In this document: positions 7,470 to 54,960 of the stretch, one piece after another
How positions within the stretch are numbered: position 1 is the first letter of the stretch
Layout of the letters: the number at the start of each line of letters is the position of its first letter
Notes under the pieces: generated by a model
The model's input: the letters and a program-made list of their open reading frames with translations, nothing else
Database searches by the model: none
What the model was told of the DNA's origin: nothing
Position numbers and translations under genes: made by a program
NCBI GenBank assembly: GCA_021734255.1
Contig: JAIPJM010000003.1
Span: 61,517-125,516, forward strand
Source: Fidelibacterota bacterium
GTDB lineage: Bacteria > Fidelibacterota > UBA8477 > JABMPR01
DNA: 64,000 nt
Direction: 5' to 3'

Positions 7470-10331
7470 CTATTCGGTGGAATTGTTCTTCAAATAGAAC
7501 AACTCCTTGCTTGGGGCTAAGGGGCGGCCCATCCAGAGCGGTCTTCTTAAGCCATCCGGGTGTGTCTCACGTTCTTTTGCCCAGTCATTCCACTTCTTGA
7601 AGTGAGCAAATGACTTTTCGGTATCTACAAAGACGTCACCATATTTTTCATCTGCTTTGGGCACACTGATGGTCACTTTTTGCAGCCAGCAATGGGCACC
7701 TGATACTGGATCCGGTTGGACGGCATGAGTGATGTTCTGATGAACCCCTCCATCTCGCCACCAGACACGCTGAGTGTCAGGATCGTCGGTCTTCCAGGGT
7801 TCGACGCCAGTGAGTGTCTCCATGCGCCACTTGCCTGTGCCTTCTTGACTGATCTTCACTGTATTGGTCATAAATTTATTGCCCTGGTCTTGCTGACGAC
7901 GCCAACGACCAATATGATGGGAACAGGCAACCACGCCAGGTTTAATTGCCTCTGTTACCCAAACTTTGTCCACGAACCAACCGATCTCTGTCTCAATTTT
8001 GAGCAATTCACCCGTTTTTACTCCCAGTTTTTTCGCATCAAGGGTATTGATCCAGATGGGGTTCCTGTGGGCGATCTCTGTCAGCCATTTGGCATTGGCA
8101 GAGCGACTGTGAATGTGGGTCGGAAGTCTGAAATTGGGTAACAGCACACATTCATGTTTGTCCTCATCCATATGATCCTTATGAACATGGGATTTGATAT
8201 AACCCGGTATGGCCTGATCCGGATAACCAAAATCCACCATGGTCTGGGAAAAGAACTCCTGTTTCCTGGAGGGTGTCGGAAATCCTGCATATTTCTTCCC
8301 TTTGTCAACAACACCAACCGCTTTACCGTCCTTTATCAGTGTTCCGGTTGCGGTCTCTGTGGCTCCTTCTGCGTCCATCTCAGATAGGGGCGTCTTGTTC
8401 TTCTCGTAGAGGCTGGGAACCACATTGTACGCGCCATACTTCCGCATATACTCAAGAGCGGTGAGACCCTCCTTTTCCGCTGTCTCCGTTAGGCCCTCTG
8501 TATGTTCGAAGATGTACTGGTAATATTCATCAATGTTGATCTTCTCGCCCTCGCGATAGGGGCTCATAAAGTGCTTCCTGATACCCAGATCATTGTCCTT
8601 ATCGATACGCCAGGATAGTTCGATCCAGAATTCATCCTCTTCCCAGACCTGGCCAGGGTTCACTTCGTAGGTGTACTCTACTGGCCTGCCTTCCCTTCTG
8701 GCTTGTTCTCTCAGAACGGGCTGACGATAGGCGATCCAGACCCCGGAATGGGTCTCATATGAATTGAGGTCATGGCGTTCGGGACCGTGTCCCATGGGAA
8801 GTACATAGTCTGCGAAAAATGCTGTCTCATTCCAGGTAGGCGTCAGTGCAATGTGGCAGCCAACTTTCTCTGGGTCAGACAGCATCTCGATCCAGGAAAA
8901 TCCATCGGGATAGGTCCAGACCGGGTTAAAGACTCGCGTAAAGTAAACATCCATGGTCCCACGACCATCCTTGATCAGGTGAGGCAGGATCTGACTCATT
9001 TCGAAGTGATTCAGAGTGTATTCCTGTGGAAAGTGGAGTTCATTCCAGACAGGGGGACCGGGAGGTACGTCAAAAAATTCAGGGTGGAATTTATTCCAGG
9101 CGCTGGGTGAGGTGCCACCGGGGGTTCCAACCGATCCTGTGAGGACATTCAGAAAATGCAGGGTTCTTGATACCTGCCAGCCGCCCAGGTTTCCGATGGA
9201 AGCGCCGCGCCATACATGACTTGACAACTGCGAGCCGGCGCCAGCAATAACATGAGCGACCTCAACGATCTGCTCTGCTTCAATACCGGCTTCGGATGCT
9301 GCATACTCAGGGGTGAACTCGGAGTAGACATCGATCAGAGCTGACACGAAATTGTCAAAAGTAAGGTCAAGATCGGGATGCTCAGCCTTGAGATATTCAT
9401 CCCAATTGACCCAGGTTTCCATATACTCACGATCATACAAGCCTTCTTGAAGAATGATACGGGCGATGGCCAGAAACACAGCTGCCTCAGATCCCGGGTA
9501 TGTTGGCATCCAGTAGTCGGCATGACTGGCTGTATTGGAGAGGCGGGGATCCAGCACGATAAGCTTGGCGCCCTTGAGCTTGCCTTCCATGATACGCTGA
9601 GCATGGGGATTGAAATAGTGACCGGTTTCAAGATGCGAACTGGCCAGGATGATAACCTTGGCGTTGGTGTGATCCGGAGATGGTCGATCGAATTTATGCC
9701 ACATGGCATATCCGGCACGTGCACCTGCTGAACAAATATTGGTGTGGGAATTATGTCCATCAACTCCCCAGGCCTTGAGAACACGTTCCATATAGCCTTC
9801 ATGTCCAGGACGACCGACATGGTAAACAACCTTATCCCGGCGCTCAGCTTTCAAAGATTTCTGGATCTTGGCTGCGATCTCATCCAGAGCCTGCTCCCAG
9901 GAAATGGTCTCCCACTTCCCTTCTCCACGCTCACCCGCCCGTTTCAGAGGATACATGATACGTTCAGTATCATTCACCTGGTTAATGGTTGCAGGACCTT
10001 TGGCACAGTTCCTTCCGCGGGAACCTGGGTGGTGAGGATTTCCCTCAAATTTACGGATCTTGCCGTCTTCTTTGTCGATATATGCCAACAAACCACAGGC
10101 TGATTCGCAATTGAAACAGGTGGTCGGAACGATACTATAGCGTCGCTCTTTTTTTACGGGCCAGGATTTGGGATCCAATTCTGCAAAATCTTCCCACTGA
10201 TCCGGGGGGGGATATTTATACAGGGGTCGCGGTCCTTCAAGAGCATAGACCTCTGAAGTGTCTTCATGTTGGGATATCCTGGGGATCACCCCGATCCCTT
10301 CGGCAAATTTTTCTATCCATGAACGTTTCAT
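7470..10331 (-). CDS. Molybdopterin (bis-MGD) oxidoreductase catalytic subunit, DMSO-reductase/CISM family. No Tat signal, so predicted cytoplasm-facing (SoeA-like / PsrA-PhsA-TtrA-like).
   Basis: 953 aa. N-terminal [4Fe-4S] motif CFNCESACG...C about 75 aa from the start. Candidate Mo-ligand region HTNICSAGARAGY. Main frame has an in-frame TGA 9 codons upstream of the ATG, so no hidden RR leader. Partner FeS/NrfD gene upstream. Confidence 0.85.
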   Translation of the reverse strand: MKRSWIEKFAEGIGVIPRISQHEDTSEVYALEGPRPLYKYPPPDQWEDFAELDPKSWPVKKERRYSIVPTTCFNCESACGLLAYIDKEDGKIRKFEGNPHHPGSRGRNCAKGPATINQVNDTERIMYPLKRAGERGEGKWETISWEQALDEIAAKIQKSLKAERRDKVVYHVGRPGHEGYMERVLKAWGVDGHNSHTNICSAGARAGYAMWHKFDRPSPDHTNAKVIILASSHLETGHYFNPHAQRIMEGKLKGAKLIVLDPRLSNTASHADYWMPTYPGSEAAVFLAIARIILQEGLYDREYMETWVNWDEYLKAEHPDLDLTFDNFVSALIDVYSEFTPEYAASEAGIEAEQIVEVAHVIAGAGSQLSSHVWRGASIGNLGGWQVSRTLHFLNVLTGSVGTPGGTSPSAWNKFHPEFFDVPPGPPVWNELHFPQEYTLNHFEMSQILPHLIKDGRGTMDVYFTRVFNPVWTYPDGFSWIEMLSDPEKVGCHIALTPTWNETAFFADYVLPMGHGPERHDLNSYETHSGVWIAYRQPVLREQARREGRPVEYTYEVNPGQVWEEDEFWIELSWRIDKDNDLGIRKHFMSPYREGEKINIDEYYQYIFEHTEGLTETAEKEGLTALEYMRKYGAYNVVPSLYEKNKTPLSEMDAEGATETATGTLIKDGKAVGVVDKGKKYAGFPTPSRKQEFFSQTMVDFGYPDQAIPGYIKSHVHKDHMDEDKHECVLLPNFRLPTHIHSRSANAKWLTEIAHRNPIWINTLDAKKLGVKTGELLKIETEIGWFVDKVWVTEAIKPGVVACSHHIGRWRRQQDQGNKFMTNTVKISQEGTGKWRMETLTGVEPWKTDDPDTQRVWWRDGGVHQNITHAVQPDPVSGAHCWLQKVTISVPKADEKYGDVFVDTEKSFAHFKKWNDWAKERETHPDGLRRPLWMGRPLAPSKELFYLKNNSTE

Positions 10332-10384
10332 AGTCTGATCCCCTCGATCTTCTTTTCAGATATATAATGTTGAATAAGGTTCAT
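10328..10384 (-). CDS. Candidate 18-codon upstream ORF (MNLIQHYISEKKIEGIRL), translationally coupled to the molybdoenzyme gene
   Basis: Strong SD TAGGAGGA 6 nt upstream of its ATG. The SD overlaps the stop of the FeS/NrfD gene. Its TGA overlaps the ATG of the 953-aa gene (ATGA). Confidence 0.25.
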   Translation of the reverse strand: MNLIQHYISEKKIEGIRL

Positions 10385-10394
10385 CTGTATCCTC

Positions 10395-12005
10395 CTAGCT
10401 CAACGGAATCAACTGGGGTACCCGGATCCTCACAAACTCGGTGAGATAAATACCGACAGCAGCCAGGCCAGCAGCGATGAAGACCATGAGATCCGTATCC
10501 AGAGTATAAAGCATAGCCAGCGGAACAATATTTCCCATGAGTATTCCCAGATAGAAATAGCGGCTATAATAGCCCCCGGTCATGAGTTTATGGGCACGTT
10601 TGGTATCCGATGTGGCATGCGGGCTCAGGAATTCAAGTACGAGAAGAGCCAGATTCAGAGAAACGGCAACCTTGAGTACCGTGAGGACCAGTCCACCTCC
10701 ATCACTGGCCAGGAAAATCCAACCTGCCGCACCAGCGATCAGAGCATGGATCAGCATGTGAACAGGAGCCAGATGATTGGCCCACAGATCTCTTCCTTTA
10801 GCCTGAGCCAGCAGGAAGGCCGTATAAATAGCCGTCATGACCGCAATTGGGGCCGTTAGATTGATCAGCAACTTGCGAAAGCCCAGGTCGAAAAGGTTAT
10901 CAAGCAGGAGCAGGGTTACAACACCACCAAAGGCTGTGATCAAGTATCCACCGCGAACCAGCCAGCTGGACCAGTTGGGTCTCAGTAGTACATAGGGGAA
11001 GCGATCCGGTCGATCCAGATCTTTCACCAACAAACCGCCAGTGAACAGCATGAATACCAGGGTCCCAATAGCAGCAGAAAACTCAAGGCTTGAATTTGAG
11101 ACACCACCGAACCATGATAACAGGGCCATGATCAGCATGAGCCCCGTCGCCACAGATTTGGTCCAGATGTAAGCCGGGACTTCCCAGCCCCAAAGCACAC
11201 CTTTGGCAGGTGAGTCGTAGACACGGGTTGCTTTGCTGGATGCCTGTTCTTTTAATTCTGCCAGCACATTATCGATAGCTCTTTGATCCGGTTGGGTGCC
11301 ATTTTTCGCATGGGATTCCATGGCCATCTGTACCAGGAGATCGGCTTGGGCCTCTGTGCTTGCAGGGTCACTGGCATGTTTGGCAAAATGACCAACACCA
11401 CTGGACTGCTCACTCCAAATATAATTATCGCGACGATCGGTCTGGGTCGGTGTCAGCATATCTGAATCACCTTCCACATACCAGAGATTGGGGGTGGTCC
11501 CCTTTTCTGGTTTTCTGGTGACCACGTGCTCCATAGCAACAAAAGATGATATTTTTGAATGCGGATCATCCAGATCCCCTGAAACGATGGCCTCCGTCGG
11601 ACAGATCACAACACATGCTGGTTCATATCCGCCATCGATCCTGTGGGCACAGTAATTACACTTGGCCGCCGTATTGTCATTGGGGTCGATATAGAGTGCA
11701 TCGTAGGGACAAGCCTGCATACAGGACTTGCAGCCGATACAACGCGCATTATCGAAATCTACGATTCCGTCCATACGTGTATACAGGGCAGACGTGGGAC
11801 AGATCTCCGTGCAGGGAGCATCTTCACAATGATTGCAACGGTGGACTGAGAAGGAACGACTGGTGTCCGGAAAGACACCTTTTTCGATGTATTTCACATG
11901 GGTGCGATTGACACCGATGGCCACATCGTGTTCAGATTTACAGGCAACCGTACAGGCATGACAGCCAATACATTTACGGTTGTCTATGACAAAGCCATAA
12001 TTCAT
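10395..12005 (-). CDS. Fused electron-transfer/membrane-anchor subunit: N-terminal 4x[4Fe-4S] ferredoxin domain (PsrB/SoeB-like) plus C-terminal NrfD/PsrC/SoeC-like polytopic membrane domain
   Basis: Four Cys clusters (CIGCHACTVACKSEH, CNHCEDAPCTEICP, CIGCKSCMQACP, CNYCAHRIDGG..CVVICP) in the first 150 aa. A hydrophilic linker follows, then about 8 TM helices. No signal peptide. Confidence 0.8.
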   Translation of the reverse strand: MNYGFVIDNRKCIGCHACTVACKSEHDVAIGVNRTHVKYIEKGVFPDTSRSFSVHRCNHCEDAPCTEICPTSALYTRMDGIVDFDNARCIGCKSCMQACPYDALYIDPNDNTAAKCNYCAHRIDGGYEPACVVICPTEAIVSGDLDDPHSKISSFVAMEHVVTRKPEKGTTPNLWYVEGDSDMLTPTQTDRRDNYIWSEQSSGVGHFAKHASDPASTEAQADLLVQMAMESHAKNGTQPDQRAIDNVLAELKEQASSKATRVYDSPAKGVLWGWEVPAYIWTKSVATGLMLIMALLSWFGGVSNSSLEFSAAIGTLVFMLFTGGLLVKDLDRPDRFPYVLLRPNWSSWLVRGGYLITAFGGVVTLLLLDNLFDLGFRKLLINLTAPIAVMTAIYTAFLLAQAKGRDLWANHLAPVHMLIHALIAGAAGWIFLASDGGGLVLTVLKVAVSLNLALLVLEFLSPHATSDTKRAHKLMTGGYYSRYFYLGILMGNIVPLAMLYTLDTDLMVFIAAGLAAVGIYLTEFVRIRVPQLIPLS

Positions 12006-12059: not shown

Positions 12060-13232
12060 TCAGGAAGCCTGTTGAGCAGCATATGCAGACGCTGCACATT
12101 CGTTCTTCCCAAGGTCCATGGTGCTCTGCTCATCATCCTCTGGATTCAGCCAACCGGCATTCACCTTTCTGATCTCAGCATAGACATCAGGCTGCTTACG
12201 TATGTTTTCCAGGATGAATTTTTGGAAATCCTTATCATTATCGATCCCATAAATGGACGCATTACCCTCAATGATCTTCCCCAGTGATTTTTCAAAAACC
12301 AGGTCTTCATTTGCTTCGCTCCACTGGATATAATGACCGGGAAGCACCTGAAGGTTGGGATCCATCTTTTTGATCTTCTGGTTTACTGTTTCATAAAGCA
12401 TGGTGGCCCATTCGACTGCTTTACCGCCTAGATCTGGTCGCCCCAGCGATATGATGAAAATCGTATCTCCAGATATCACATATTTCCCGTCAATGATGTA
12501 GCAGGTGCTGCCAGGTGTATGGCCCGGCGTATGAACGATCCTGATATCAGGGCCTTTGGGAGAAGCCTTGTAGGTCTCGCCGTCCTGAATAGAAACATAT
12601 TCGAAACTGGCACCGAGAAAATCACCGGCATGTGCATGAACCACTGCCCCTGTTTTTTCTGCCAGGAAGCGACTGCCACTGATATAATCAGCCTGAAGGT
12701 GTGTTTCGAAAGTTTGGGTTAGCTTGCAATCATGCGCTTCCGCAAATTGAGAGTAAAACTCCATATTCCTCGAAGGATCAAAGAGAGTCAGCTCACCTTC
12801 AGAGATCAAACCATAATTCAGAGAGGCTTTTCCAGGCCGAACGAACTGCCACAGTTCGTAGGTATCCGCAGTATCGTTAATTCTTTTGTCTGTCAACATA
12901 TTGCCCCAGGAAACGATTCCCTGGGTTAGATACCCTACATCTTCAAATCCATGGGCGATCAGGATCTCGCCTACATATTTCGCTGAGCCTTCCTTCGCGC
13001 AGACGACCCTCACCTTTTTATCACGCGGGACCTTGGCTACCGATGCTTCCTCTTCTTCCATGAAGTCAAAATAAGGGACATTGATCATATCCACTTCAAC
13101 GGGACTTTCCACTTTGAAGCGGTTGAAGTCCTCTTCATTTCTTACATCCAGAATGAGGAGTTCTTCCGCTTGGGTGAGCCAGTCAAAAAGTTGCTTTGCT
13201 GAGTAGGGAGTAAGCATGTAATTACCTCGCAA
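12060..13232 (-). CDS. Rhodanese-domain / MBL-fold fusion protein, persulfide dioxygenase (ETHE1/Blh)-like
   Basis: N-terminal rhodanese (LILDVRNEEDF...VVCAKEGSAKY). C-terminal MBL fold aligning to ETHE1 (THLQADYISGS vs THCHADHITGS; HTPGHTPGS; SGDTIF). The ETHE1 Fe ligands (His, His, Asp) are conserved. Confidence 0.75.
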   Translation of the reverse strand: MRGNYMLTPYSAKQLFDWLTQAEELLILDVRNEEDFNRFKVESPVEVDMINVPYFDFMEEEEASVAKVPRDKKVRVVCAKEGSAKYVGEILIAHGFEDVGYLTQGIVSWGNMLTDKRINDTADTYELWQFVRPGKASLNYGLISEGELTLFDPSRNMEFYSQFAEAHDCKLTQTFETHLQADYISGSRFLAEKTGAVVHAHAGDFLGASFEYVSIQDGETYKASPKGPDIRIVHTPGHTPGSTCYIIDGKYVISGDTIFIISLGRPDLGGKAVEWATMLYETVNQKIKKMDPNLQVLPGHYIQWSEANEDLVFEKSLGKIIEGNASIYGIDNDKDFQKFILENIRKQPDVYAEIRKVNAGWLNPEDDEQSTMDLGKNECAASAYAAQQAS

Positions 13233-13478
13233 TCATTTCATACGCTGGACATAGAATATCTTATCGAGTCCAACTTCGTCTATCTGTAAAACCTTTTGTC
13301 CGGAGGCTCTGCACCAGGCCTTGATATCTGATTCTGCTCAGGGATGAGCAGCTGTAATTTTCAGTATCTCACCTATCTGCATCATTCTTAATTGTTGGTT
13401 CGAACGAATCACCGGCATTCCCATGCCGCAGTCCCCCAGATCTATGGATACATCCCATTTGACGTCCATATGCTTCAT
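13233..13478 (-). pseudogene. TusA-like sulfur-carrier paralog with in-frame TGA (13338-13340) and altered active-site motif (CPxP replaced by CGMGMP)
   Basis: Translation MKHMDVKWDVSIDLGDCGMGMPVIRSNQQLRMMQIGEILKITAAHP*AESDIKAWCRASGQKVLQIDEVGLDKIFYVQRMK aligns along its whole length with the neighbouring TusA (…DPGSKNDISAWTSRTGHELLG…FVYFIKKK). The stop sits where Gly/Ala is expected. The extended frame ends exactly at the start of the next gene. Confidence 0.5.
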
Positions 13479-13482
13479 TGTG

Positions 13483-13998
13483 CTAAATGAAAAGTGATAT
13501 ATCAGCGTCTGCCGCAAACTCCAGGAAGGTTGCTGCACCGCCAAGTTCAACGCCATCGATGAACTGATCCTGTGTAAATCCGAAGACATCCATGGTCATC
13601 TGACAGCCAATCAGTCTGACACCCAGATCGATGCACATTTCACGCAGCTCTTCCACCGTCGCGACACCTTTTTTCGCAAAGGTCTTCTTCATGAAGGATG
13701 TTGCCATGGCCTCATAGCCTGGAACATTGTTGCCCAGGATATTGGGGATGGGCCACTCAAAATTCTGAAATCCCTTTGGCCCAAATGGCATCTTCATGGG
13801 CATGGCAGGATTGGTCTGTGGCGCCACCTTGGCATCAATCTTTTTGTTCAGCAGGGGCAGCCCATAGAAGGTAAAGAATACAGCAACTTCCATATCCATG
13901 GCGGCTGCTGTCGAGGCTAGTAAAAATGGCGGATAAGCCCAGTCCAGAGTTCCCTGGGAGGCGATCATTGCCAAGCGCTTGGGTCTGTTTTCACTCAT
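13483..13998 (-). CDS. DsrE/DsrF-like (DsrE2-type) sulfur-relay family protein
   Basis: 171 aa. Conserved LIGCQMTMDVFG Cys motif typical of the DsrE/DsrF/DsrH-like family. Adjacent to TusA. Confidence 0.7.
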   Translation of the reverse strand: MSENRPKRLAMIASQGTLDWAYPPFLLASTAAAMDMEVAVFFTFYGLPLLNKKIDAKVAPQTNPAMPMKMPFGPKGFQNFEWPIPNILGNNVPGYEAMATSFMKKTFAKKGVATVEELREMCIDLGVRLIGCQMTMDVFGFTQDQFIDGVELGGAATFLEFAADADISLFI

Positions 13999-14009
13999 GG
14001 ATCACCCGC

Positions 14010-14246
14010 TCACTTCTTCTTGATGAAGTAAACGAACCCTTCATCATTTTCATCAGTACCAAGTAGTTCATGGCCTGTACGGGACGTCCATGCAGAAATA
14101 TCATTTTTTGAACCTGGATCAGTCGCTACCATTTTTAGAATTTGACCACTCTCCATAGCATCAATTGCCTTCTTGGTCTTGATCACGGGAAGAGGGCAAT
14201 TCAGTCCTTTGCAATCCAGTTCCTGATCCACATTAAATTCTGTCAT
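14010..14246 (-). CDS. tusA: TusA-like sulfurtransferase
   Basis: 78 aa with canonical LDCKGLNCPLPVIKTKKAI...TDPGS (CPxP motif). Confidence 0.85.
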   Translation of the reverse strand: MTEFNVDQELDCKGLNCPLPVIKTKKAIDAMESGQILKMVATDPGSKNDISAWTSRTGHELLGTDENDEGFVYFIKKK

Positions 14247-14596
14247 TTAGCTACTCCTTCTTTCTCCGGGAAAAGCTCCCCCAATTTGAATTCTCCAGCT
14301 TCCAATCCGATTTTGCATGAATTGACGCAATTTAAGATTTTCACGATCATATCACTGGCTAAAAAATAAAAAAATCGGGTGCCCTCACGCCTGGAGGCCA
14401 GAATGTTGCGTCTTTGCATGTAACGCAGATGCTGGGAAGTGATGGGCTGGGGGAGATCCAATTCACGTTGGATCTGTCCGACTGACTTTTCTTCTTCCTG
14501 CAAAAACTCAATGATCCGTAATCGTTCGGGATGCCCCAATGCTTTCAAGGTCTTGGAGGCTGATGCGAAAAATTCAGCTTTCTCGGTATCGGTCAT
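14243..14596 (-). CDS. ArsR/SmtB-family transcriptional regulator, SqrR/BigR-like candidate persulfide/redox sensor
   Basis: HTH region LKALGHPERLRIIEFLQEEEKSVGQIQRELDLPQPITSQHLRYM. C-terminal CVNSC pair. Start placed at MTDTEK (14594-14596), because the upstream direct repeats are likely the operator. The ORF track's longer start is 14632. Confidence 0.8.
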   Translation of the reverse strand: MTDTEKAEFFASASKTLKALGHPERLRIIEFLQEEEKSVGQIQRELDLPQPITSQHLRYMQRRNILASRREGTRFFYFLASDMIVKILNCVNSCKIGLEAGEFKLGELFPEKEGVAK

Positions 14597-14801
14597 GTTT
14601 TGTATCACCATTATTAAGACAATATTTGTCATAATATATAGTTTTCACTATATTTGTCAAGTTGAATATTTACACCTGTAGGGCAGCGGTCATGGCAATT
14701 GCTTTTAGCACCAAAAAATGTAGTTTGTCAGGTGTTTTACACCTTCTTTTATAGTAACCCATCCCCCATTAATTCATCAATAATGATATAATTTTTCAGG
14801 A
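14597..14801. promoter_or_regulatory. Divergent promoter region (regulator leftward, acnA rightward) with direct repeat TATTTGTCA x2 (14623-14631, 14651-14659) and near-palindrome GACAATATTTGTC
   Basis: Repeats seen directly, in an AT-rich interval between divergent genes. Candidate ArsR-family operator. Confidence 0.4.
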
Positions 14802-24985: not shown

Positions 24986-26176
24986 GTGAAAGAGCCAAAG
25001 ATCACCCGGATCGTTGTTGATGAGAAGGTCGCCAACCAGGAGTTGGTAGCTCGTTACCAGAAAAATAATCCCGATGCCACGGTGACCCGGATCGAACTCA
25101 CTGAGGAGTATAAAGTATCCATGTTCCGTCAGGAACCGACACCGGCTAAACGGGAGATCCTGCTCACAGAAAAACAGGGACATACTGTAAAACAATGCCC
25201 AGGGACAGATCGGACCTATCGCTGTTGTAATTATCATGTGATCAACCAGACAAGCAATTGTCCCATTGACTGCACCTATTGTATCCTTCAGTTTTACTTA
25301 AATAATCCCGTAACAACTGTCTATGCGAACTCTGAGAAATTGCTGACTGAGGTAAAAGAGAAGATCGCCACCCAACCCAGGCGCTTTTTCCGTATCGGTA
25401 CCGGTGAGTTATCCGATAGTTTGGCATTTGACTCCTCATCCGATTTCTCCCGGGACATTGTGACGTATTTCGCTGATCTGGATAATGTGCTTCTGGAGTT
25501 GAAGACCAAATCCAATCGGATCGAGAACTTATTGGACCTGGATCACAAGGGACACACCGTGGTCTCCTGGTCAGTGAATCCACAGGTCATTATTGACGCC
25601 GAGGAACATAAAGCTGCTTCACTGCAGGAACGGCTCGAAGCCATGGCCAAAGTCCAGGCAGCCGGTTATAAGATCGGTTTCCATTTTGACCCACTCCTTT
25701 TTCACGAGGGTTGGGAACAGAGTTACCCAGATCTGATCAAACAACTTTTCCAGGTGGTCGACCCGACAAACGTTACCTGGGTCTCCATCGGGTCTCTCCG
25801 CTTTCCCCCGGAGATGAAAGACAAGGTTTTGGAAAAATTCCCCAAATCAAAGATCATGTTCGCTGAACTGATCCGCGGAATGGATGGCAAGATGCGCTAT
25901 CCCAAACCGCTGCGATTGGACATGTATCGAACGGTGTATAAAGCATTACAGACATATGGCGGGGAGGATCTATTCATCTATTTCTGTATGGAATCTGCCG
26001 AAATTTGGGAACGGGTCATGGGCTGGAGCCCTGAAGATAATGAGCACCTGGACTATCTATTTGCTGAAAGTCTGCATCGTCGCTTCCCTGGTCTCATGCA
26101 AGAGGCTCCTGATCGACAAGTCTATGATGATGGTATTCCGCTTCACCAGGATAAGGCAGACATTCCCGGGTTTTAA
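24986..26176 (+). CDS. SPL-family radical SAM protein (spore-photoproduct-lyase-like)
   Basis: CPIDCTYC (Cx3Cx2C) followed by ILQFYLNNPVTTVYAN and RIGTGELSDSLAFD, as in the SplB family. Confidence 0.7.
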   Translation: MKEPKITRIVVDEKVANQELVARYQKNNPDATVTRIELTEEYKVSMFRQEPTPAKREILLTEKQGHTVKQCPGTDRTYRCCNYHVINQTSNCPIDCTYCILQFYLNNPVTTVYANSEKLLTEVKEKIATQPRRFFRIGTGELSDSLAFDSSSDFSRDIVTYFADLDNVLLELKTKSNRIENLLDLDHKGHTVVSWSVNPQVIIDAEEHKAASLQERLEAMAKVQAAGYKIGFHFDPLLFHEGWEQSYPDLIKQLFQVVDPTNVTWVSIGSLRFPPEMKDKVLEKFPKSKIMFAELIRGMDGKMRYPKPLRLDMYRTVYKALQTYGGEDLFIYFCMESAEIWERVMGWSPEDNEHLDYLFAESLHRRFPGLMQEAPDRQVYDDGIPLHQDKADIPGF

Positions 26177-30237: not shown

Positions 30238-30743
30238 GTCTATTAATTACTCCTGTTCATGCGAAGACTGATGTACAACGCTTGGCTGGTCTGGCCAGTG
30301 AGATCTGGTGGCAGCATTTTCCCCCGATCATTGGTAAAGCTCAGGTCGAATACATGGTTAAAAAGTTTCAAAGTGAAACAGCCATACTGGAGCAATTAGA
30401 GCAGGGCTATGACTATTTTCTGGCTGAGATTGATGGCCTCGCTGTTGGATATACCGGCCTGCTACCTGATGCAGAGGCAAAAAAGCTGATGATCAGCAAG
30501 CTTTATGTGAAAGAGAATGCCCGTGATAACGGTGTTGGTCAGACGCTCCTGGATTTCATTGAAAAGAAATGTAACACTGAAGGGCTTGATACACTCTGGC
30601 TCACAGTGAATCGCGGAAACACGGGACCGATCAATTGGTATCTGAAACGTGGGTTTAGGATCACAAAAGAAGTTGACATGGACATCGGTGAAGGCTTTAT
30701 CATGGATGACTATATCATGGAAAAGGACTTACACCGGGACTGA
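30234..30743 (+). CDS. GNAT family N-acetyltransferase
   Basis: RDNGVGQTLLDFIEKK acetyl-CoA motif. Confidence 0.7.
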   Translation: MSLLITPVHAKTDVQRLAGLASEIWWQHFPPIIGKAQVEYMVKKFQSETAILEQLEQGYDYFLAEIDGLAVGYTGLLPDAEAKKLMISKLYVKENARDNGVGQTLLDFIEKKCNTEGLDTLWLTVNRGNTGPINWYLKRGFRITKEVDMDIGEGFIMDDYIMEKDLHRD

Positions 30744-31549
30744 TGACGTCGATCACGGGAAATATTTTCAACATTAAACGATACGCTATTCATGATGGAC
30801 CCAACATCCGGACCACGGTCTTCTTTAAGGGTTGCTCCCTCTCCTGCTGGTGGTGTCACAACCCGGAAGGGAAATCCCCAGAGGTCCGGTTCAAGTCAAA
30901 CCCTCGGCAAACCTTTGAGTCCAGCGATGAAAAATTGGTTCCTTTGGGTGGCTGGACAAGTACAGTCTCTGAGATCATGGGGGAAATACGCAAGGATCTG
31001 CCCTTCTTCCAGGAAAGCGGTGGTGGCGTCACTTTCTCTGGTGGTGATCCCCTCTACCAGCCCGAGTTTCTTCAGGCGCTCCTCAAGGCTTGTGGCCAGG
31101 AGAACATCCATCGAAGCGTTGATACCTCAGCCCATGCCCCTGCAGAGATCATTCGTTCAGTTGCAGGAGAAACTGAGCTCTGGTTATTGGACCTTAAACA
31201 CATGGATAATACCCTGCATCTTAAGCATACGGGTTTAGAAAACGGCTTGATCCTTCAAAATATCAAACTGCTGGATGCATTGGGCGCGGAAATTCGTATC
31301 CGCATCCCTTTGATCCCGGGAGTGAATGCTGATGAACAGAATCTGACTGCGTCAGCAAAATTCATCTGTGATCTGGAACGTAAACATCCCATTGATATCT
31401 TACCCTATCATGACACGGCTGCTTCAAAATATCGAACCCTGGGGTTAGATTATCGCCAGGTGCAAGCAAGCGGACCAGAATCATTGAATCCAGAACAGCT
31501 CATAGAATTGATGGGCAGCTATGGACTCTCAGCCCAAATAGGTGGTTAA
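30743..31549 (+). CDS. Glycyl-radical enzyme activating protein (PFL-AE family radical SAM)
   Basis: FFKGCSLSCWWCHNPE (CxxxCxxC) plus GGDPLYQPEF. Confidence 0.9.
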   Translation: MTSITGNIFNIKRYAIHDGPNIRTTVFFKGCSLSCWWCHNPEGKSPEVRFKSNPRQTFESSDEKLVPLGGWTSTVSEIMGEIRKDLPFFQESGGGVTFSGGDPLYQPEFLQALLKACGQENIHRSVDTSAHAPAEIIRSVAGETELWLLDLKHMDNTLHLKHTGLENGLILQNIKLLDALGAEIRIRIPLIPGVNADEQNLTASAKFICDLERKHPIDILPYHDTAASKYRTLGLDYRQVQASGPESLNPEQLIELMGSYGLSAQIGG

Positions 31550-31552
31550 AGA

Positions 31553-33910
31553 ATGAATGACCGTATCAATAGATTGAGACAGGAAAGCTTTGAGGCAAAG
31601 CCATCCATCTCCATTGAGCGGGCCTTGCTTGAAACTGAATTTTATCAGGATAATGCAGATAATTATTCGCTACCGGTTCTGCGCGCACTGACCTTTAAAC
31701 ACATCTGTGAAAACAAATCGCTCTATCTCGGACCTGATGAACTTATTGTCGGCGAGAGGGGACCGTCACCTAAATCTGTTCCCACATTTCCAGAGCTGAC
31801 CTGCCATAGCGTTGAAGACTTGAAGATTCTAAAAAGTCGTGAAATGACACCTTACGATATTTCCGATACTGATATAGCCATCTACGCTGAAAAGGTCATC
31901 CCGTATTGGGAAGGTCGGTCCATGCGGGATCGGATATTCTCAAAAGTGCCTGAAGACTGGAAGCTTGCCTATGAGGCTGGACTTTTCACCGAGTTCATGG
32001 AACAGCGGGCACCAGGACATACGGCCCTGGATGGAACCATCTATCGAATGGGTATGATCGATCTCAAGGCGCGCATCGCTGATCGTATCCAGCGCTTGGA
32101 TTATGATAGCGATCCTCAGGCAGCTGATCGGTATGAGCAACTCAAAGCCATGGATATCACCTGCGACGCCATTATCATTTTTGCCGCTCGTCACGCTGAG
32201 CTGGCTGAATCTCTGATCAAACAAACCGCCGATCCTGAACGCGTCCAGGAGTTAAAAACGATCGCTTACGTGTGCCGAAATGTTCCGGCGAAGGCTCCTC
32301 AAACATTTCATGAAGCTATCCAGATGTACTGGTTCGTGCACCTGGGCATCATCACAGAACTCAATGGCTGGGACGCCATGACACCTGGACACATCGACCA
32401 TCATTTGATACCCTTTTACGAAAAGGAGATCGTTGACGGAACCCTGACCCGGGAGGGGGCAAAGGAACTGATGAGTTGCCTGTGGATCAAGGTGAACAAC
32501 CAGACTGCACCGCCAAAAGTTGGGGTAACAGCAAAGGAAAGTGGCACTTATAACGATTTCACCCAGATCAATCTTGGTGGCCTCTACCCGGATGGGAGCG
32601 ATGCCAGTAATGAGGTGTCCCTGATCGGCCTGGAAGTATCGGACGAACTTCATCTGCTTCAGCCTCAGCCCAGTGTCCACATCAGCTCGAAGACGCCAGA
32701 TGCATTCCTGACGGCTGCCAGTAAAGTCATTCGCAAGGGGTACGGCTACCCCTCCGTCTTTAACACAGAGATGGTGGTGAAAGAACAGCTCCGTGTCGGC
32801 AAATCCGCACAAGATGCATTGGAAGGCGGTACCAGCGGCTGTATCGAGACCGGTGCCTTTGGCAAAGAAGCCTATATTCTCACAGGTTATTTCAACGTCC
32901 CCAAGGTATTGGAACTTACCCTGAATAATGGTACAGATCCCCTGAGTGGCAAGCAAGTGGGGCTAAAGACCGGACCCGTTGAATCTTTTTCAACCTATGA
33001 GGAGTTGTACTCGGCATTTTTGAAACAATTGCACTACTTCGTCGATTTGAAGATCCGGGTAAATAACTATATCGAACAGATGTATGCCAACTACTCTCCG
33101 GCTCCCTTCTTATCAGTTGTGATTCATGATTGTATCGAGAAGGGTCAGGACTATTACAACAGCGGTCCCCGTTACAACACCAACTACATCCAGTGTTGTG
33201 GGATCGGGACGGTGACCGACAGTCTTTCTGCGTTAAGGACCCATGTCTTCGGCGGTGAGCTTGACATGGCTGAGTTAATGGCAGCACTTGAAGCGAATTT
33301 TGAGGGTTTCGACGATCTCCGATCCCAACTACAGCATCAGACCCCCTTCTATGGTAACGATGATGATCGGGCAGACATGATCATGCTGGATGTTTATGGC
33401 GATCTATTCAAAGCCATCGATGGCAAGCCCAACACCAAAGGAACGGTTTATCATCTCAATATGCTTTCCACCACCTGTCATATATATTTTGGCAAAATGC
33501 TAGGTGCCACACCCAACGGACGGCGTGCTCATCTACCAGAATCAGATGGCACTTCTCCCTCACACGGTGCAGATGTGCAGGGTCCCACAGCTGTGGTAAA
33601 GTCCCTGAGCAAAATGGATCAATCCTTGTCCGGGGGTACTCTGCTGAATCAACGATTCCTGCCTGACGTACTTGCTTCGGACCAGGACCTGAAAAACCTG
33701 GGGAGTCTCATCCGTACCTACTTCAAGCTTGGTGGTCATCATATGCAGTTCAATGTTGTAGATACAGCGACCCTGCGCAAAGCCCAAGCGAACCCAGACG
33801 ACTATAAAAACCTTCTGGTTCGGGTTGCAGGTTACAGCGATTATTTTGTTGATCTGGATAAGGATCATCAGGAAGAGATCATTCGTAGAACAGAGCAAGG
33901 GTTACCTTAA
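31553..33910 (+). CDS. Glycyl radical enzyme, Cys-X-Glu eliminase/dehydratase-type (substrate unknown)
   Basis: 785 aa. C-terminal glycyl-radical motif RVAGYSDYF. Cys loop GTSGCIETGAFG (C-x-E, as in the GDH/CutC/HypD/IslA class). PFL-like GATPNGRRAHLPESDGTSPSHGAD block. Confidence 0.85.
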   Translation: MNDRINRLRQESFEAKPSISIERALLETEFYQDNADNYSLPVLRALTFKHICENKSLYLGPDELIVGERGPSPKSVPTFPELTCHSVEDLKILKSREMTPYDISDTDIAIYAEKVIPYWEGRSMRDRIFSKVPEDWKLAYEAGLFTEFMEQRAPGHTALDGTIYRMGMIDLKARIADRIQRLDYDSDPQAADRYEQLKAMDITCDAIIIFAARHAELAESLIKQTADPERVQELKTIAYVCRNVPAKAPQTFHEAIQMYWFVHLGIITELNGWDAMTPGHIDHHLIPFYEKEIVDGTLTREGAKELMSCLWIKVNNQTAPPKVGVTAKESGTYNDFTQINLGGLYPDGSDASNEVSLIGLEVSDELHLLQPQPSVHISSKTPDAFLTAASKVIRKGYGYPSVFNTEMVVKEQLRVGKSAQDALEGGTSGCIETGAFGKEAYILTGYFNVPKVLELTLNNGTDPLSGKQVGLKTGPVESFSTYEELYSAFLKQLHYFVDLKIRVNNYIEQMYANYSPAPFLSVVIHDCIEKGQDYYNSGPRYNTNYIQCCGIGTVTDSLSALRTHVFGGELDMAELMAALEANFEGFDDLRSQLQHQTPFYGNDDDRADMIMLDVYGDLFKAIDGKPNTKGTVYHLNMLSTTCHIYFGKMLGATPNGRRAHLPESDGTSPSHGADVQGPTAVVKSLSKMDQSLSGGTLLNQRFLPDVLASDQDLKNLGSLIRTYFKLGGHHMQFNVVDTATLRKAQANPDDYKNLLVRVAGYSDYFVDLDKDHQEEIIRRTEQGLP

Positions 33911-33913
33911 ATC

Positions 33914-34756
33914 ATGATTTCAGTACACAGCCTCCATATTTATCCCGTAAAATCTCTTCAGGGAATCGACCTGAAGTCAGCCAGATTGGGTATCCGAGGT
34001 CTCCAGTATGATCGGACCTGGATGGTGACCGATGCCCAGAATAAATTCATCACTCAGCGCCATTACCCGAAGCTGGCAAGGATCCAGGTTGAGTTAACGC
34101 AGGACCAAATGACCTTAAGTCACCCGTCCATGGATCCTCTCTGTGTCGATCTGGAAGATTCCCATTCTGATCAATTGGAAGCAACGATCTGGGATGATAA
34201 GGTAAAGGCAATGGATGAAGGGAAAGAGGCTTCCCAATGGTTAACCCAGGTTCTGGGGACGATAGACGGACATTCCTTGAAACTACTACGCTATCATCCT
34301 GATCATATACGCCACGTGAGCCAAAAACATCTGCGGGATGAAGCCGCCCACACCGCTTTTGCTGATGGATTCCCCTTTCTGATCACTTCTGTAGAATCCC
34401 TGGGCAAACTCAATGAAGTCCTTCAAAACAATGGTTCTCAGCCTGTTGGTATGAACCGCTTTCGACCCAATATCGTCATTCGTGGTGTTGAACCCTTTGG
34501 TGAAAACTCACTGGATACACTTGCTTCAAACTCAGGTGAATATGGGCTGGGTATTCGCAAACCCTGCCAGCGATGTCATGTCACAACGATCGATCAATCC
34601 ACTGGACAGAAGATCGAACCGAAAGAACCCCTGCGAACGCTTTTGCAGATGGACACCCAGCCAGGCCTGGAAGGCGCCTACTTCGGACAAAACTCAATAT
34701 TACTGTTTGGGAAAGACGCACTGATACAGGTAGGCGATCAGTTGAGTCCCTCCTGA
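33914..34756 (+). CDS. MOSC domain-containing protein (YcbX/mARC-like, MOSC_N beta-barrel plus MOSC)
   Basis: [15 protein letters not shown]..., FRPNIVIRG. Conserved Cys in the C-terminal half (CQRCHVTT). Confidence 0.75.
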
Positions 34757-34779
34757 ACAACAACAAGAAAGCGAATAGT

Positions 34780-46430: not shown

Positions 46431-47312
46431 ATGCTAGCTTCTGTGCTCATGGTATATTTACTCTGGACACTCCTCATCATTTTACTCTTCTATAGCGGTA
46501 TCCAGATTTTCATCCGGAAAGTTTACGCCTTCAAACCGGTTCCCCACAAAGAAACACCAGCGAAATTCGGCATTCCCTTCGATGAAGTCAGGTTCAAGAC
46601 AGAGAATGATAAGACACTATATGGCTGGTGGATTCCGGCGGTGAAGCATTCCGAGACCGCACCTACCCTAATTCTCGCCCATGGATTATATCGCAATCTG
46701 GGGTACATGCTGCGATATATTCAAAATTTGCATCCCCTGGGTTATAACCTCTTGACCTTCGATTCACGACATCATGGCAGCAGCGACCGGGATGATCATG
46801 CCTCTATGTATAAAATTGGTCAGGATATCACACATGCAGTTCGGTATCTGGAATCGATAAAAGTGGCTCAAGGTCGTTTCGGGGCAATCGGCATCTCGCT
46901 GGGAGGAGCCGGGTCGGTTTACGCTGCCTCCCTGGAACCATCCATCAAAGCCGTTGTCACTGTTGGTGCACCAGCCCATCCTGTCGATGTCATGTACCGT
47001 AGATTCAGGGAATATTATTTACCTGGCTTTGTTGTGTGGTATGCCCTTAGACAGATAGAAAAGGCGATTGGTGTTTCCTTTGATTCTTTTGCACCTGAAA
47101 CCAATATTGCTAAGGCAAAAGCCCACTTCCTGATCATTCATGGAGAGGAGGACCAGGTCGTCTTACACTCACAAGGTGAGAAACTCAAAAAAGCAGGCAA
47201 TGCGGGTCAATGTGAACTGTGGTCGCTGGACGGTTACGGCCATTCCAATTGTCATCATCATCCAGATTTCTGGAATCGGGTTCACACTTTTTTGATCGAT
47301 CAATTAACTTAA
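46431..47312 (+). CDS. Alpha/beta hydrolase with N-terminal TM anchor
   Basis: GISLGG nucleophile elbow. HGEED...GHS C-terminal triad elements. Confidence 0.7.
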   Translation: MLASVLMVYLLWTLLIILLFYSGIQIFIRKVYAFKPVPHKETPAKFGIPFDEVRFKTENDKTLYGWWIPAVKHSETAPTLILAHGLYRNLGYMLRYIQNLHPLGYNLLTFDSRHHGSSDRDDHASMYKIGQDITHAVRYLESIKVAQGRFGAIGISLGGAGSVYAASLEPSIKAVVTVGAPAHPVDVMYRRFREYYLPGFVVWYALRQIEKAIGVSFDSFAPETNIAKAKAHFLIIHGEEDQVVLHSQGEKLKKAGNAGQCELWSLDGYGHSNCHHHPDFWNRVHTFLIDQLT

Positions 47313-47347
47313 GGGATGGTAACTATTTCTTCACAAGGAAGCCAATC

Positions 47348-54912: not shown

Positions 54913-54960
54913 TCTTCGTTCAATTCGTTGTCAGAAATAAAATATGGAGAAGAAATAGAT

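What the first reader, a model, noticed from the sequence alone, without database searches (positions are those of the whole stretch)
13233..13478. Second TusA-like gene interrupted by an in-frame TGA and carrying a CGMGMP variant of the CPxP active-site motif
When translated through the TGA at 13338-13340, the product aligns end-to-end with the adjacent canonical TusA. The stop sits where Gly/Ala of the DPG turn is expected. The extended frame ends exactly where the next gene begins (13233 / 13232), so the full-length frame is the ancestral gene. It could be a young pseudogene, a sequencing error, or a programmed readthrough site. The Cys loop insertion (C-GMGM-P) suggests functional divergence even before the stop arose.
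Basis: seen in the sequence. Interest (0 to 1): 0.55.

Follow-up and report, generated by a model that had tools for sequence, protein, structure and literature searches.

The report
Selenocysteine-encoding TusA-like sulfur-relay gene
The "interrupted" second TusA gene is most likely not broken: its in-frame TGA is conserved across dozens of uncultured marine bacteria and most likely encodes selenocysteine, which would make it an apparently undescribed selenoprotein family sitting inside sulfur-oxidation gene clusters and mis-annotated in databases as 41-54-residue fragments.

Summary
The minus-strand ORF 13478..13233 has 81 codons with a TGA at codon 47 (13340..13338). Its read-through product is a TusA-fold protein.

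It is not a pseudogene or an assembly error:
- The same TGA sits at the same codon in 39 of 41 distinct homologous genes (39-56% identity).
- The window's syntenic orthologs carry it too.
- Two independent assemblies of the window's own sequence carry it.

Several lines point to selenocysteine:
- Three homolog clusters have Cys (TGC/TGT) at that codon.
- The 34 codons after the TGA are under purifying selection in frame.
- TGA is otherwise an ordinary stop in these genomes.
- A small hairpin with a GU-containing loop lies 23 nt downstream, with frozen synonymous sites and compensatory changes. It is thermodynamically weak.

The alignment to TusA is gapless: the canonical Cys19 is replaced by Met (CPxP becomes MGMP), a Cys sits at position 17, and Sec replaces the G/A of the DPG/DPA turn.

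The gene travels with TusA-DsrE2 next to sHdr, DsrMKJOP or Psr/Soe-like modules in Marinimicrobia and SAR324.

No Sec machinery could be checked, because none lies in the sequence held. No listing of this family was found in the selenoprotein literature I could read.

The parts
13233..13478 (-). Full recoded gene: TusA-fold protein of 80 residues (codon 47 = UGA, read as Sec) plus terminal TGA stop at 13235..13233
   Evidence: Translation. Pfam TusA 44.9 bits across the stop. In-frame purifying selection on both sides of the UGA. Orthologs L057-L062 have the same architecture.
13338..13340 (-). In-frame UGA, codon 47, proposed selenocysteine codon. It aligns with the G/A of the DPG/DPA turn of TusA (A47 of E. 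coli TusA).
   Evidence: TGA in 39 of 41 distinct homologous genes; the other two have TGC and TTA. Cys in P0005, P0023 and P0028. Identical in two independent assemblies.
13304..13321 (-). Candidate bacterial SECIS hairpin AGGCCUG[GUG]CAGaGCCU. Seven base pairs with one bulged A, apical loop GUG, 23 nt between UGA and loop.
   Evidence: Folds. Synonymous sites of codons 53-57 are nearly frozen. pS is 0.43 here against about 0.74 elsewhere. 78.9% of cells are paired, 5 pairs change on both sides, 0 of 500 shuffles reach this. Weak points: -7.3 kcal/mol, RNAalifold keeps only 3 pairs, no Rfam match.
13413..13430 (-). Codons 17-22, C-G-M-G-M-P: the altered CPxP region. Cys17 is the candidate partner of Sec47. 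Met19 occupies the place of the canonical TusA cysteine.
   Evidence: Invariant in all 41 distinct genes, apart from G/F variants in distant Cys forms. Gapless alignment to canonical TusA and Pfam register.
13326..13328 (-). Asp51 codon. It is retained from TusA, where Asp51 lies 4.2 A from the catalytic sulfur.
   Evidence: Invariant in alignment A5 and 41/41. Role in E. coli TusA from PMC2854127.
13483..13998 (-). DsrE2-type sulfur carrier, immediately upstream in the same operon
   Evidence: NCBIfam SulfCarrDsrE2 209.3 bits (cut-off 210) and Pfam DrsE_2 161.6 bits. Adjacent to, or on the same contig as, the recoded gene in most loci.
14010..14246 (-). Canonical TusA (CPLP motif), first sulfur carrier of the operon. 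It ends with a TGA stop.
   Evidence: Pfam TusA 90.2 bits; sequence.
14243..14632 (-). ArsR/BigR-type regulator heading the operon
   Evidence: NCBIfam HTH_metalloreg 74.7 bits, BigR 53.7 bits. Conserved upstream of TusA-DsrE2 in other loci.
12060..13217 (-). Rhodanese + metallo-beta-lactamase fusion (385 aa), downstream gene
   Evidence: Pfam Rhodanese and Lactamase_B. Same gene in orthologs L057-L064.
10395..12005 (-). Fused 4Fe-4S (PsrB/DsrO-like) + NrfD membrane subunit
7470..10331 (-). Molybdopterin oxidoreductase catalytic subunit (953 aa), Psr/Soe-like
   Evidence: Pfam Molybdop_Fe4S4, Molybdopterin, Molydop_binding. Annotated in Ca. Marinimicrobia MAGs.

Best explanation
The gene encodes an 80-residue TusA-fold selenoprotein.

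Decoding (inferred): ribosomes reach UGA-47. A small hairpin about 15-20 nt downstream (apical loop G-U-G) recruits the Sec-specific elongation factor with Sec-tRNA, and selenocysteine is inserted instead of terminating.

Protein architecture: the canonical TusA catalytic cysteine (Cys19 of CPxP) has been replaced by Met. The reactive chalcogen has moved across the same pocket to residue 47, which is the N-cap of helix 2. Cys17 lies in the neighbouring beta1-alpha1 loop, and His45 and Asp51 flank it.

Function (inferred from context): it acts in the cytoplasmic sulfane-sulfur relay (rhodanese, TusA, DsrE2) that feeds sHdr, reverse-Dsr or Psr/Soe-like oxidoreductases in Marinimicrobia, SAR324 and related marine bacteria. 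I propose that Sec47 takes up sulfane sulfur as a Se-S(-S) adduct and that Cys17 resolves or relays it through a selenenylsulfide.

Status of each step:
- Shown: the conserved recoding signal, the fold, the altered active site and the gene context.
- Inferred: Sec identity, SelB dependence and the chemistry.
For: 1. Conserved UGA. TGA is at codon 47 in 39 of 41 distinct genes from 53 loci, at 39-56% protein identity. It is also present in the syntenic orthologs L057-L062. The sequence, TGA included, is identical in two independent assemblies.
2. Sec/Cys pairing. TGC or TGT sits at that codon in L003/L067/P0005, L065/P0023 and L066/P0028, in two sub-branches.
3. Translation past the UGA. In-frame pN/pS is 0.25 for codons 48-52 and 0.48 for codons 59-76, against values above 1 in the other two frames. 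Only the full-length product gives a complete TusA fold: Pfam match, and the model of the Cys form has pLDDT 78.8 and matches E. coli TusA 3LVJ_C at rmsd 1.3 A.
4. TGA is otherwise a normal stop. It ends 16 of 43 long ORFs in the window and 134 of 362 in the loci, including TusA and this gene itself.
5. SECIS-like hairpin. Loop GUG, spacing 23 nt, G then U in the loop, which fits the published bSECIS model (PMC13188914). Codons 53-57 use AAG 22/22, GCC 35/38, TGC 35/36 and AGG 36/37, whereas other conserved Gly/Pro/Arg/Ala codons have entropy 1.6-1.9 bits. Five of 8 pairs change on both sides, 0 of 500 shuffles reach this, and slid controls pair at most 58% against 78.9%. The divergent L054/L056 keep a hairpin at the same place with a different stem and a GGUCG/GGUAU loop. 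The Cys forms L065/L066 have no such hairpin.
6. Active-site geometry. E. coli TusA numbering coincides with this protein's. In TusA, Asp45 H-bonds the NH of Cys19 and Asp51 is 4.2 A from its sulfur (PMC2854127), so residue 47 borders the canonical site. In the model, the Cys equivalent to Sec47 is the residue just before helix 2.
7. Context. The gene always lies on contigs with TusA-DsrE2, next to sHdr-LbpA, DsrMKJOP or Mo-oxidoreductase modules.
Against: - No selA, selB, selD or tRNA-Sec lies in the 64-kb window or in the roughly 647 kb of related loci held. The trait is therefore unverified for these genomes.
- SAR406 and SAR324 single-cell genomes were listed as 'orphan SelD' organisms, meaning SelD was found without other known Sec components (PMC5029168). 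Those genomes are partial.
- The hairpin is small and weak. It is -7.3 kcal/mol in the window, against the model threshold of -7.5. The z-score of the surrounding fold is not significant. RNAalifold supports only 3 pairs. There is no Rfam match.
- The hairpin overlaps conserved residues K-A-W-C-R, so part of its conservation is protein-level.
- The Cys forms L003/L067 can still form a different stem.
- Cys forms are few compared with UGA forms.
- There are no proteomic or labelling data.
- The proposed Se-S chemistry and the Cys17 partnership are inference only. Distances in the model could not be measured with these tools.
Confidence: 0.8

Rival explanations
1. Programmed or leaky UGA read-through that does not involve selenocysteine. 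A near-cognate tRNA (Trp, Cys or Arg) would be inserted, giving a short 46-residue product and a minor full-length isoform, with the hairpin acting only as a read-through stimulator.
For: No Sec machinery was seen in any sequence held. SAR406 and SAR324 partial genomes were reported with orphan SelD only. The hairpin is weak and matches no Rfam family. One locus has TTA (Leu) and one database protein has Arg at the site.
Against: The sense-codon homologs in otherwise intact genes have Cys at this position, never Trp, in three separate clusters. The site is a helix N-cap beside the canonical TusA active site, which is typical for a catalytic Cys/Sec. The hairpin position and its G-U loop match the bSECIS consensus. 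A 46-residue product would lack half of the fold.
Confidence: 0.1
2. Young pseudogene: a nonsense mutation (for example TGC or TGG to TGA) inactivated a second TusA copy.
For: A single in-frame stop in an otherwise intact gene. GenBank and gene callers leave it truncated or uncalled. Real decayed copies exist: L007 has an extra TAA and L070 has three TGAs.
Against: The same TGA is in 39 of 41 distinct genes down to about 40% identity and in at least two phyla. There is purifying selection after the stop. Synonymous constraint falls exactly on a downstream hairpin.
Confidence: 0.02
3. Sequencing or assembly error at 13338-13340.
For: None beyond the prior that single-base errors occur in MAGs.
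Against: The 271-nt sequence, TGA included, is identical in two independent assemblies from separate runs, SRR12088348 and SRR12088349. More than 50 other contigs from different projects have the same codon.
Confidence: 0.01
4. Alternative genetic code (TGA = Trp or Gly, table 4 or 25) in these organisms. This is what some ENA gene calls, which translate the codon as W, imply.
For: Database proteins P0001-P0004, P0007 and P0017 show W at the site.
Against: The W in P0001-P0003 comes from code-4 gene calling of TGA, not from TGG. TGA ends 37% of long ORFs in the window and loci, including the adjacent TusA and this gene itself.
Confidence: 0.01
5. Two separate small proteins: a 46-residue N-terminal peptide and an independently initiated C-terminal peptide.
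For: Gene callers annotate the N-terminal part alone, at 41-54 aa.
Against: No start codon or ribosome-binding site follows the TGA. Neither half is a folding unit of the beta-alpha-beta-alpha-beta-beta TusA fold. The Cys forms are single continuous ORFs.
Confidence: 0.02

Closest known systems
TusA / SirA-like sulfur carrier proteins (Pfam PF01206; E. coli TusA, PDB 3LVJ/1DCJ; Allochromatium vinosum TusA of the rhd-tusA-dsrE2 cluster)
   Same: Same fold and length. Pfam match above the gathering score. Pro22, Pro46, Asp51 and Cys56 are retained at the same numbering as E. coli TusA. Same genomic company (rhodanese, TusA, DsrE2, Dsr/sHdr genes).
   Different: The defining catalytic Cys of CPxP is replaced by Met (M-G-M-P). 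A Cys sits two residues upstream. Asp45 is replaced by His. Residue 47 is Sec (or Cys). The protein scores only 25.6 bits against the NCBIfam TusA equivalog (cut-off 78).
Known Sec-containing relatives of sulfur-transfer proteins: DsrE-like selenoprotein (PF02635, UxxC) and rhodanese-like selenoproteins (PF00581, NF041203)
   Same: These are also small sulfur-carrier folds in which a catalytic Cys position is taken by Sec. They were also found by Sec/Cys pairing and a bSECIS, and their biochemistry is also untested.
   Different: Different folds. In those families Sec replaces the family's own catalytic Cys; here the canonical Cys is lost and Sec appears at another position of the pocket. No TusA/SirA/PF01206 entry appears in the parts of the 2022 and 2026 family lists returned by my keyword searches, and neither term occurs in the GOS paper or in the BSepDB main text.
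YedF (TusA-like selenium-metabolism protein, NF008242 / TIGR03527)
   Same: A TusA-like domain linked to selenium biology.
   Different: By established knowledge (not tested here), YedF keeps the CPxP cysteine and is not itself a selenoprotein; it is usually found next to yedE or sel genes. This protein scores 19.7 bits against a cut-off of 79 and sits in sulfur-oxidation clusters.
E. coli fdhF bacterial SECIS
   Same: A hairpin directly downstream of UGA inside the coding region, with a GGU in or next to the apical loop at a comparable distance. The fdhF comparison rests on my own knowledge; the general bSECIS model is from PMC13188914.
   Different: A much shorter and weaker stem with a 3-nt loop. 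There is no sequence similarity beyond GGU, and binding to SelB is untested.

Membership tests
Bacterial selenoprotein gene (Sec-UGA) | In-frame UGA conserved at the same codon among divergent homologs | tested here: met
   39 of 41 distinct genes; orthologs L057-L062.
Bacterial selenoprotein gene (Sec-UGA) | Homologs with Cys aligned to the UGA | tested here: met
   L003/L067/P0005 (TGC), L065/P0023 (TGT), L066/P0028 (TGC).
Bacterial selenoprotein gene (Sec-UGA) | Protein-coding conservation continues downstream of the UGA in the same frame | tested here: met
   pN/pS is 0.25 and 0.48 in frame, above 1 off frame. The Pfam domain spans the stop.
Bacterial selenoprotein gene (Sec-UGA) | bSECIS geometry: 3-9 nt apical loop, G in the first two loop positions, 16-37 nt from UGA to the loop (PMC13188914) | tested here: met
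   Loop GUG, spacing 23 nt. GGU is invariant or nearly so.
Bacterial selenoprotein gene (Sec-UGA) | bSECIS stability (MFE <= -7.5 kcal/mol) and a well-supported stem | tested here: inconclusive
   Window -7.3; orthologs -7.8 and -8.0; other members down to about -9.7. Covariation is positive, but RNAalifold keeps 3 pairs, the fold z-score is not significant and Rfam has no match.
Bacterial selenoprotein gene (Sec-UGA) | Host genome encodes SelA, SelB, SelD and tRNA-Sec | tested here: inconclusive
Literature: SAR406 and SAR324 SAGs have SelD only.
Bacterial selenoprotein gene (Sec-UGA) | Selenium demonstrated in the polypeptide | not testable with these tools
   Needs 75Se labelling or mass spectrometry.
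TusA family (PF01206) | Profile match above the curated threshold | tested here: met
   Pfam 44.9 bits against 28.6. The NCBIfam TusA equivalog is not met: 25.6 against 78.
TusA family (PF01206) | Two-layer beta-alpha-beta-alpha-beta-beta fold | tested here: met
   Model of the Cys-form homolog P0005 has pLDDT 78.8. Foldseek top hit is E. coli TusA 3LVJ_C, rmsd 1.3 A, TM 0.83. The window protein itself could not be submitted.
TusA family (PF01206) | Catalytic Cys in a CPxP motif at the N-terminus of helix 1 | tested here: not met
   That position is Met19 (M-G-M-P); Cys17 lies at -2.
TusA family (PF01206) | Conserved Asp45 and Asp51 near the catalytic Cys | tested here: inconclusive
   Asp51 is invariant; Asp45 is replaced by His45.
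YedF selenium-metabolism protein | Match to NF008242 / TIGR03527 above the cut-off | tested here: not met
   19.7 bits against a cut-off of 79.
Pseudogene | The disabling lesion is not conserved, and constraint is relaxed after it | tested here: not met

The most novel reading that the evidence does not exclude
This would be the first selenoprotein component of dissimilatory sulfur oxidation. It is a TusA-fold carrier whose reactive centre moved from the CPxP cysteine to a selenocysteine at the helix-2 N-cap. It would work with Cys17 through Se-S intermediates to hand sulfane sulfur to sHdr, rDsr or Psr-like enzymes. It would also be an unrecognised selenoprotein in SAR406 and SAR324, the lineages previously listed as having an 'orphan' SelD. 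A more radical version is not excluded by my data: these lineages really lack SelA/SelB and decode this UGA in some other way.
Probability: 0.35. Interest if true: 0.75.

Novelty: new variant of a known kind. Interest (0 to 1): 0.62.

Why it matters
If confirmed, it matters in four ways.
1. It adds a selenoprotein family on a fold (TusA) with no entry found in the published family lists I could search. Here the catalytic chalcogen has changed both element and position.
2. It links selenium use to the cytoplasmic sulfur-oxidation machinery of abundant dark-ocean and oxygen-minimum-zone bacteria (Marinimicrobia/SAR406, SAR324). Their sulfur metabolism is still debated (PMC8359478).
3. It offers a concrete candidate for the 'orphan SelD' puzzle in exactly those lineages.
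4. It exposes a systematic annotation error. The gene is stored as 41-54-residue hypothetical proteins, is not called at all, or is translated with the wrong code (W at the site).

Tried and rejected
- Rfam at gathering thresholds on the whole window and at E <= 10 on 13200-13500: no SECIS or other family.
- ARAGORN on the window and all loci: no tRNA-Sec, only tRNA-Val.
This is uninformative about whole genomes.
- Annotation of about 50 window ORFs: no sel genes.
- Two home-made scans for other in-frame-TGA genes. One used conservation across loci and one used codon-usage scoring in the window. Both were swamped by off-frame and antisense signal and gave no credible second candidate.
- RNAalifold on the 48-nt alignment gave only a 3-bp consensus, so the hairpin rests on synonymous-site and pair-count evidence.
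P0002 (W form, poor model, pLDDT 61.5) and P0005 (Cys form) were used instead. Model coordinates are not returned, so the Cys17-Sec47 distance could not be measured.
- Supplementary family table of BSepDB: not held.
- Rejected idea: metal binding by the Met-rich loop plus His/Sec/Cys as the primary function. The only nearby metalloenzyme common to some contexts (the Mo enzyme) is absent from the sHdr and Dsr contexts. The idea is not excluded.

Full report
**1. The observation**

On the minus strand, 13478..13233 reads MKHMDVKWDVSIDLGDCGMGMPVIRSNQQLRMMQIGEILKITAAHP-TGA-AESDIKAWCRASGQKVLQIDEVGLDKIFYVQRMK-TGA. The internal TGA is at 13340..13338.

With Cys at the stop, the product matches Pfam TusA (PF01206) at 44.9 bits, against a gathering score of 28.6. 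The match covers residues 21-78, so it runs across the stop.

The gene lies in a minus-strand operon:
- ArsR/BigR-like regulator, 14632-14243
- canonical TusA, 14246-14010
- DsrE2, 13998-13483
- this gene
- rhodanese/metallo-beta-lactamase fusion, 13217-12060
- fused FeS/NrfD subunit, 12005-10395
- 953-aa molybdopterin oxidoreductase, 10331-7470
- two SLC13 transporters with a Usp protein between them

The window comes from a Candidatus Marinimicrobia (SAR406) MAG. Its DsrE2, TusA, rhodanese/MBL and Mo-enzyme sequences are GenBank MCF7807325, MCF7807326, MCF7807324 and MCF7807322. The accession numbers of DsrE2 and rhodanese/MBL are consecutive. From this I infer that the gene between them carries no protein record there.

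**2. It is not a lesion**

The only two full-length hits of the first protein search (P0001, P0002, about 52% identical) show W at the site. Their DNA has TGA there; the W comes from gene calling with code 4.

Scans of genome and metagenome collections gave 54 further loci. At the aligned codon every locus has TGA except three: L003 (TGC, Cys), L051 (TTA, Leu) and the frameshifted L055. After removing duplicates, 39 of 41 distinct genes have TGA.

The syntenic orthologs of the window's operon have the same TGA and the same C-terminal part. These are L057 and L058-L062, with the order aconitase / ArsR-TusA-DsrE2-x-Rhd/MBL-FeS/NrfD-Mo-SLC13. Gene callers stop there at 44-48 residues.

The window's own 271 nt, TGA included, are identical in two independent assemblies of separate runs, SRR12088348 and SRR12088349.

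TGA is otherwise an ordinary stop. It ends 16 of 43 long ORFs in the window and 134 of 362 in the loci. It also ends the neighbouring TusA and this gene itself.

Pairwise pN/pS values show that the sequence after the TGA is translated in frame:
- codons 11-46 (before the TGA): 0.25 in frame
- codons 48-52: 0.25 in frame
- codons 59-76: 0.48 in frame
- all three regions: above 1 in the other two frames

**3. Why selenocysteine**

*Cys homologs.* A HMMER search of 1.84 billion representatives returned three kinds of entries.
- Many are cut off exactly at ...SSSHP: P0006, P0008, P0011-P0014, P0024, P0030, P0032.
- Some are code-4 'W' forms.
- Three clusters are full length with Cys at the site: P0005 (HPCAE), P0023 (HLCSY) and P0028 (HACSF). 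Their DNA reads TGC, TGT and TGC.

The Cys forms fall in two sub-branches, and each sub-branch also has UGA members. No intact member has Trp.

*Synonymous constraint.* Codons 53-57 are almost frozen at synonymous sites:
- Lys AAG 22/22
- Ala GCC 35/38
- Cys TGC 35/36
- Arg AGG 36/37, out of six possible Arg codons

Equally conserved Gly, Pro, Arg and Ala codons elsewhere have 1.6-1.9 bits of codon entropy. pS falls to 0.43 here against about 0.74 elsewhere.

*The hairpin.* These bases form AGGCCUG[GUG]CAGaGCCU at window 13321..13304. The loop starts 23 nt after the UGA.

On 29 distinct sequences the 8-pair helix is paired in 78.9% of cells. Five pairs show changes on both sides. None of 500 shuffles reaches this, and slid controls pair at most 58%.

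The divergent members L054 and L056 keep a hairpin at the same place, built from a different stem (CGUG/CACG) with a GGUCG or GGUAU loop.

The Cys forms L065 and L066 have no hairpin there. L003 and L067 lack the CCUG[GUG]CAGG hairpin, though they can form another stem.

The geometry fits the published bacterial SECIS model: a 3-9 nt loop, G in the first two loop positions, and 16-37 nt spacing (PMC13188914).

*Weak points.*
- The window's hairpin is only -7.3 kcal/mol, against a model threshold of -7.5.
- The fold z-score is not significant.
- RNAalifold keeps three pairs.
- Rfam has no match.

**4. The protein**

MAFFT aligns the family with canonical TusA proteins without a gap in the motif region. 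The Pfam register agrees.
- The CPxP cysteine corresponds to Met19 (M-G-M-P).
- The family's invariant Cys is at position 17.
- The UGA replaces the G of DPG.

Numbering happens to coincide with E. coli TusA:

| E. coli TusA | This protein |
|---|---|
| C19 | M19 |
| P22 | P22 |
| D45 | H45 |
| P46 | P46 |
| A47 | U47 |
| D51 | D51 |
| C56 | C56 |

A model of the Cys form P0005 has pLDDT 78.8 and shows beta-alpha-beta-alpha-beta-beta. The Cys equivalent to Sec47 is the residue just before helix 2. Its best structural match is E. coli TusA: 3LVJ_C, rmsd 1.3 A, TM 0.83.

In the IscS-TusA structure, Asp45 H-bonds the NH of Cys19 and Asp51 lies 4.2 A from its sulfur (PMC2854127). I infer that residue 47 borders the canonical active site. 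The reactive chalcogen has in effect moved across the pocket.

I could not measure the Cys17-Sec47 distance, because model coordinates are not returned.

**5. Context and likely role**

The gene always shares a contig with TusA-DsrE2, in three arrangements.
- Directly after DsrE2 and before Rhd/MBL and the Psr/Soe-like Mo enzyme. This is the arrangement in the window and in L057-L062.
- At the 3' end of an sHdr cluster. The order is ArsR-TusA-DsrE2-DsrE-LbpA-HdrC-HdrB-HdrA-hyp-HdrCB-x-thioesterase-EtfBA, as in L014.
- After DsrMKJOP-DsrE2, as in L032.

GenBank places truncated members in Ca. Marinimicrobia and in SAR324.

I infer a role in the cytoplasmic sulfane-sulfur relay. Sec47 would be the nucleophile and Cys17 its partner. 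This chemistry is a proposal, not a result.

**6. Comparison with what is known**

Keyword searches of the full text of the 2022 and 2026 reviews of prokaryotic selenoprotein families returned DsrE-like and rhodanese-like selenoproteins. They found no occurrence of TusA or SirA in either review, and none of PF01206 in the 2026 review.

The GOS survey has no SirA or COG0425 term, and the deep-Sep and BSepDB main texts have no TusA or PF01206 term.

No dedicated NCBIfam model matches. No paper in the searchable library contains the motif strings. No paper combining TusA with selenocysteine or selenoprotein appeared, from its title and abstract, to deal with a Sec-containing TusA; I read only one of them in the text, and it did not.

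The protein passes the Pfam test for TusA but fails the family's defining CPxP cysteine. I therefore file it as a variant, not a member.

**7. What remains open**

No Sec-insertion genes or tRNA-Sec lie in the sequence I could hold.

SAR406 and SAR324 single-cell genomes were listed as having only an 'orphan' SelD (PMC5029168). Either those partial genomes missed selA, selB and selC, or decoding here is unusual. This is the main check still to be made.

Occasional decayed or altered copies exist:
- L007 has an extra TAA.
- L051 has TTA.
- P0009 has Arg at the site.
- L070 has three TGAs, including one at codon 17.

**Verdict**

- Pseudogene and sequencing error are refuted.
- Conserved recoding, most likely Sec, is strongly supported (about 0.8).
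- The sulfur-relay mechanism is plausible but inferred.

Noticed in passing
window 13233-13478; GenBank MCF7807324-MCF7807326: The window is from a Candidatus Marinimicrobia MAG (contig of 187,808 bp). The protein accessions of DsrE2 and the rhodanese/MBL gene are consecutive, so the recoded gene between them apparently has no protein record. Logan assemblies call no gene there either.
   Followed up: partly
database proteins P0001-P0004, P0007, P0017 (L001, L002, L070): Some ENA gene calls on short contigs translate TGA as W (code 4). This produces full-length 'proteins' with a spurious Trp at the Sec site and spurious N-terminal extensions. Checked at the DNA level for P0001, P0002 and P0003.
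   Followed up: partly
window 7470-12005 (minus strand): A fused FeS (PsrB/DsrO-like) + NrfD subunit and a 953-aa molybdopterin oxidoreductase. This looks like the psr-like module long discussed for Marinimicrobia. Here it is co-transcribed with TusA-DsrE2-rhodanese carriers and followed by two SLC13 transporters. Whether it runs oxidatively or reductively is unknown.
   Followed up: partly
window 12060-13232: The ORF lister starts the rhodanese/MBL gene at TTG 13232, directly after the upstream stop. The likely start is ATG 13217 behind GAGG (385 aa, as in orthologs and GenBank).
   Followed up: yes
L007 (1472-1669), L051, L070, P0009: Occasional altered copies of the family: L007 has an additional TAA, L051 has TTA (Leu) at codon 47 with an intact hairpin, and P0009 has Arg at the site. 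L070 has three TGAs, including one at the Cys17 codon. These could be decay, errors or, for L070, a second Sec.
   Followed up: partly
L003, L067 (Cys forms), about 20-44 nt after the TGC: The Cys-containing HPCAE forms lose the CCUG[GUG]CAGG hairpin but can form a different stem, UUGCCUG/CGGGCAA (about -11.7 kcal/mol). It may be a relic of, or an alternative to, the SECIS-like element.
   Followed up: no
window 30743-33910: A glycyl-radical enzyme (PFL-like, 785 aa) with its radical-SAM activase. This indicates an anaerobic or microaerobic lifestyle.
   Followed up: no
window 33914-36813: The MOSC-domain ORF (33914-34756) and the DUF255 thioredoxin-like ORF (34573-36813) overlap by about 180 nt as listed. 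The second probably starts later.
   Followed up: no
window 47219-48727; 24986-26176; 54928-56844: Tryptophanase, a spore-photoproduct-lyase-like radical SAM protein and HtpG. These are ordinary genes and none is related to selenium.
   Followed up: no
literature, PMC5029168 Table 1: SAR406 and SAR324 single-cell genomes, the two named lineages that carry this gene, are both on the published list of 'orphan SelD' organisms.
   Followed up: partly
L065 (2849-3226): One Cys-form member (P0023) lies outside any sulfur-gene context: next to an Rrf2 regulator, dnaA, carD and ispD. It also carries a roughly 50-residue N-terminal extension.
   Followed up: no
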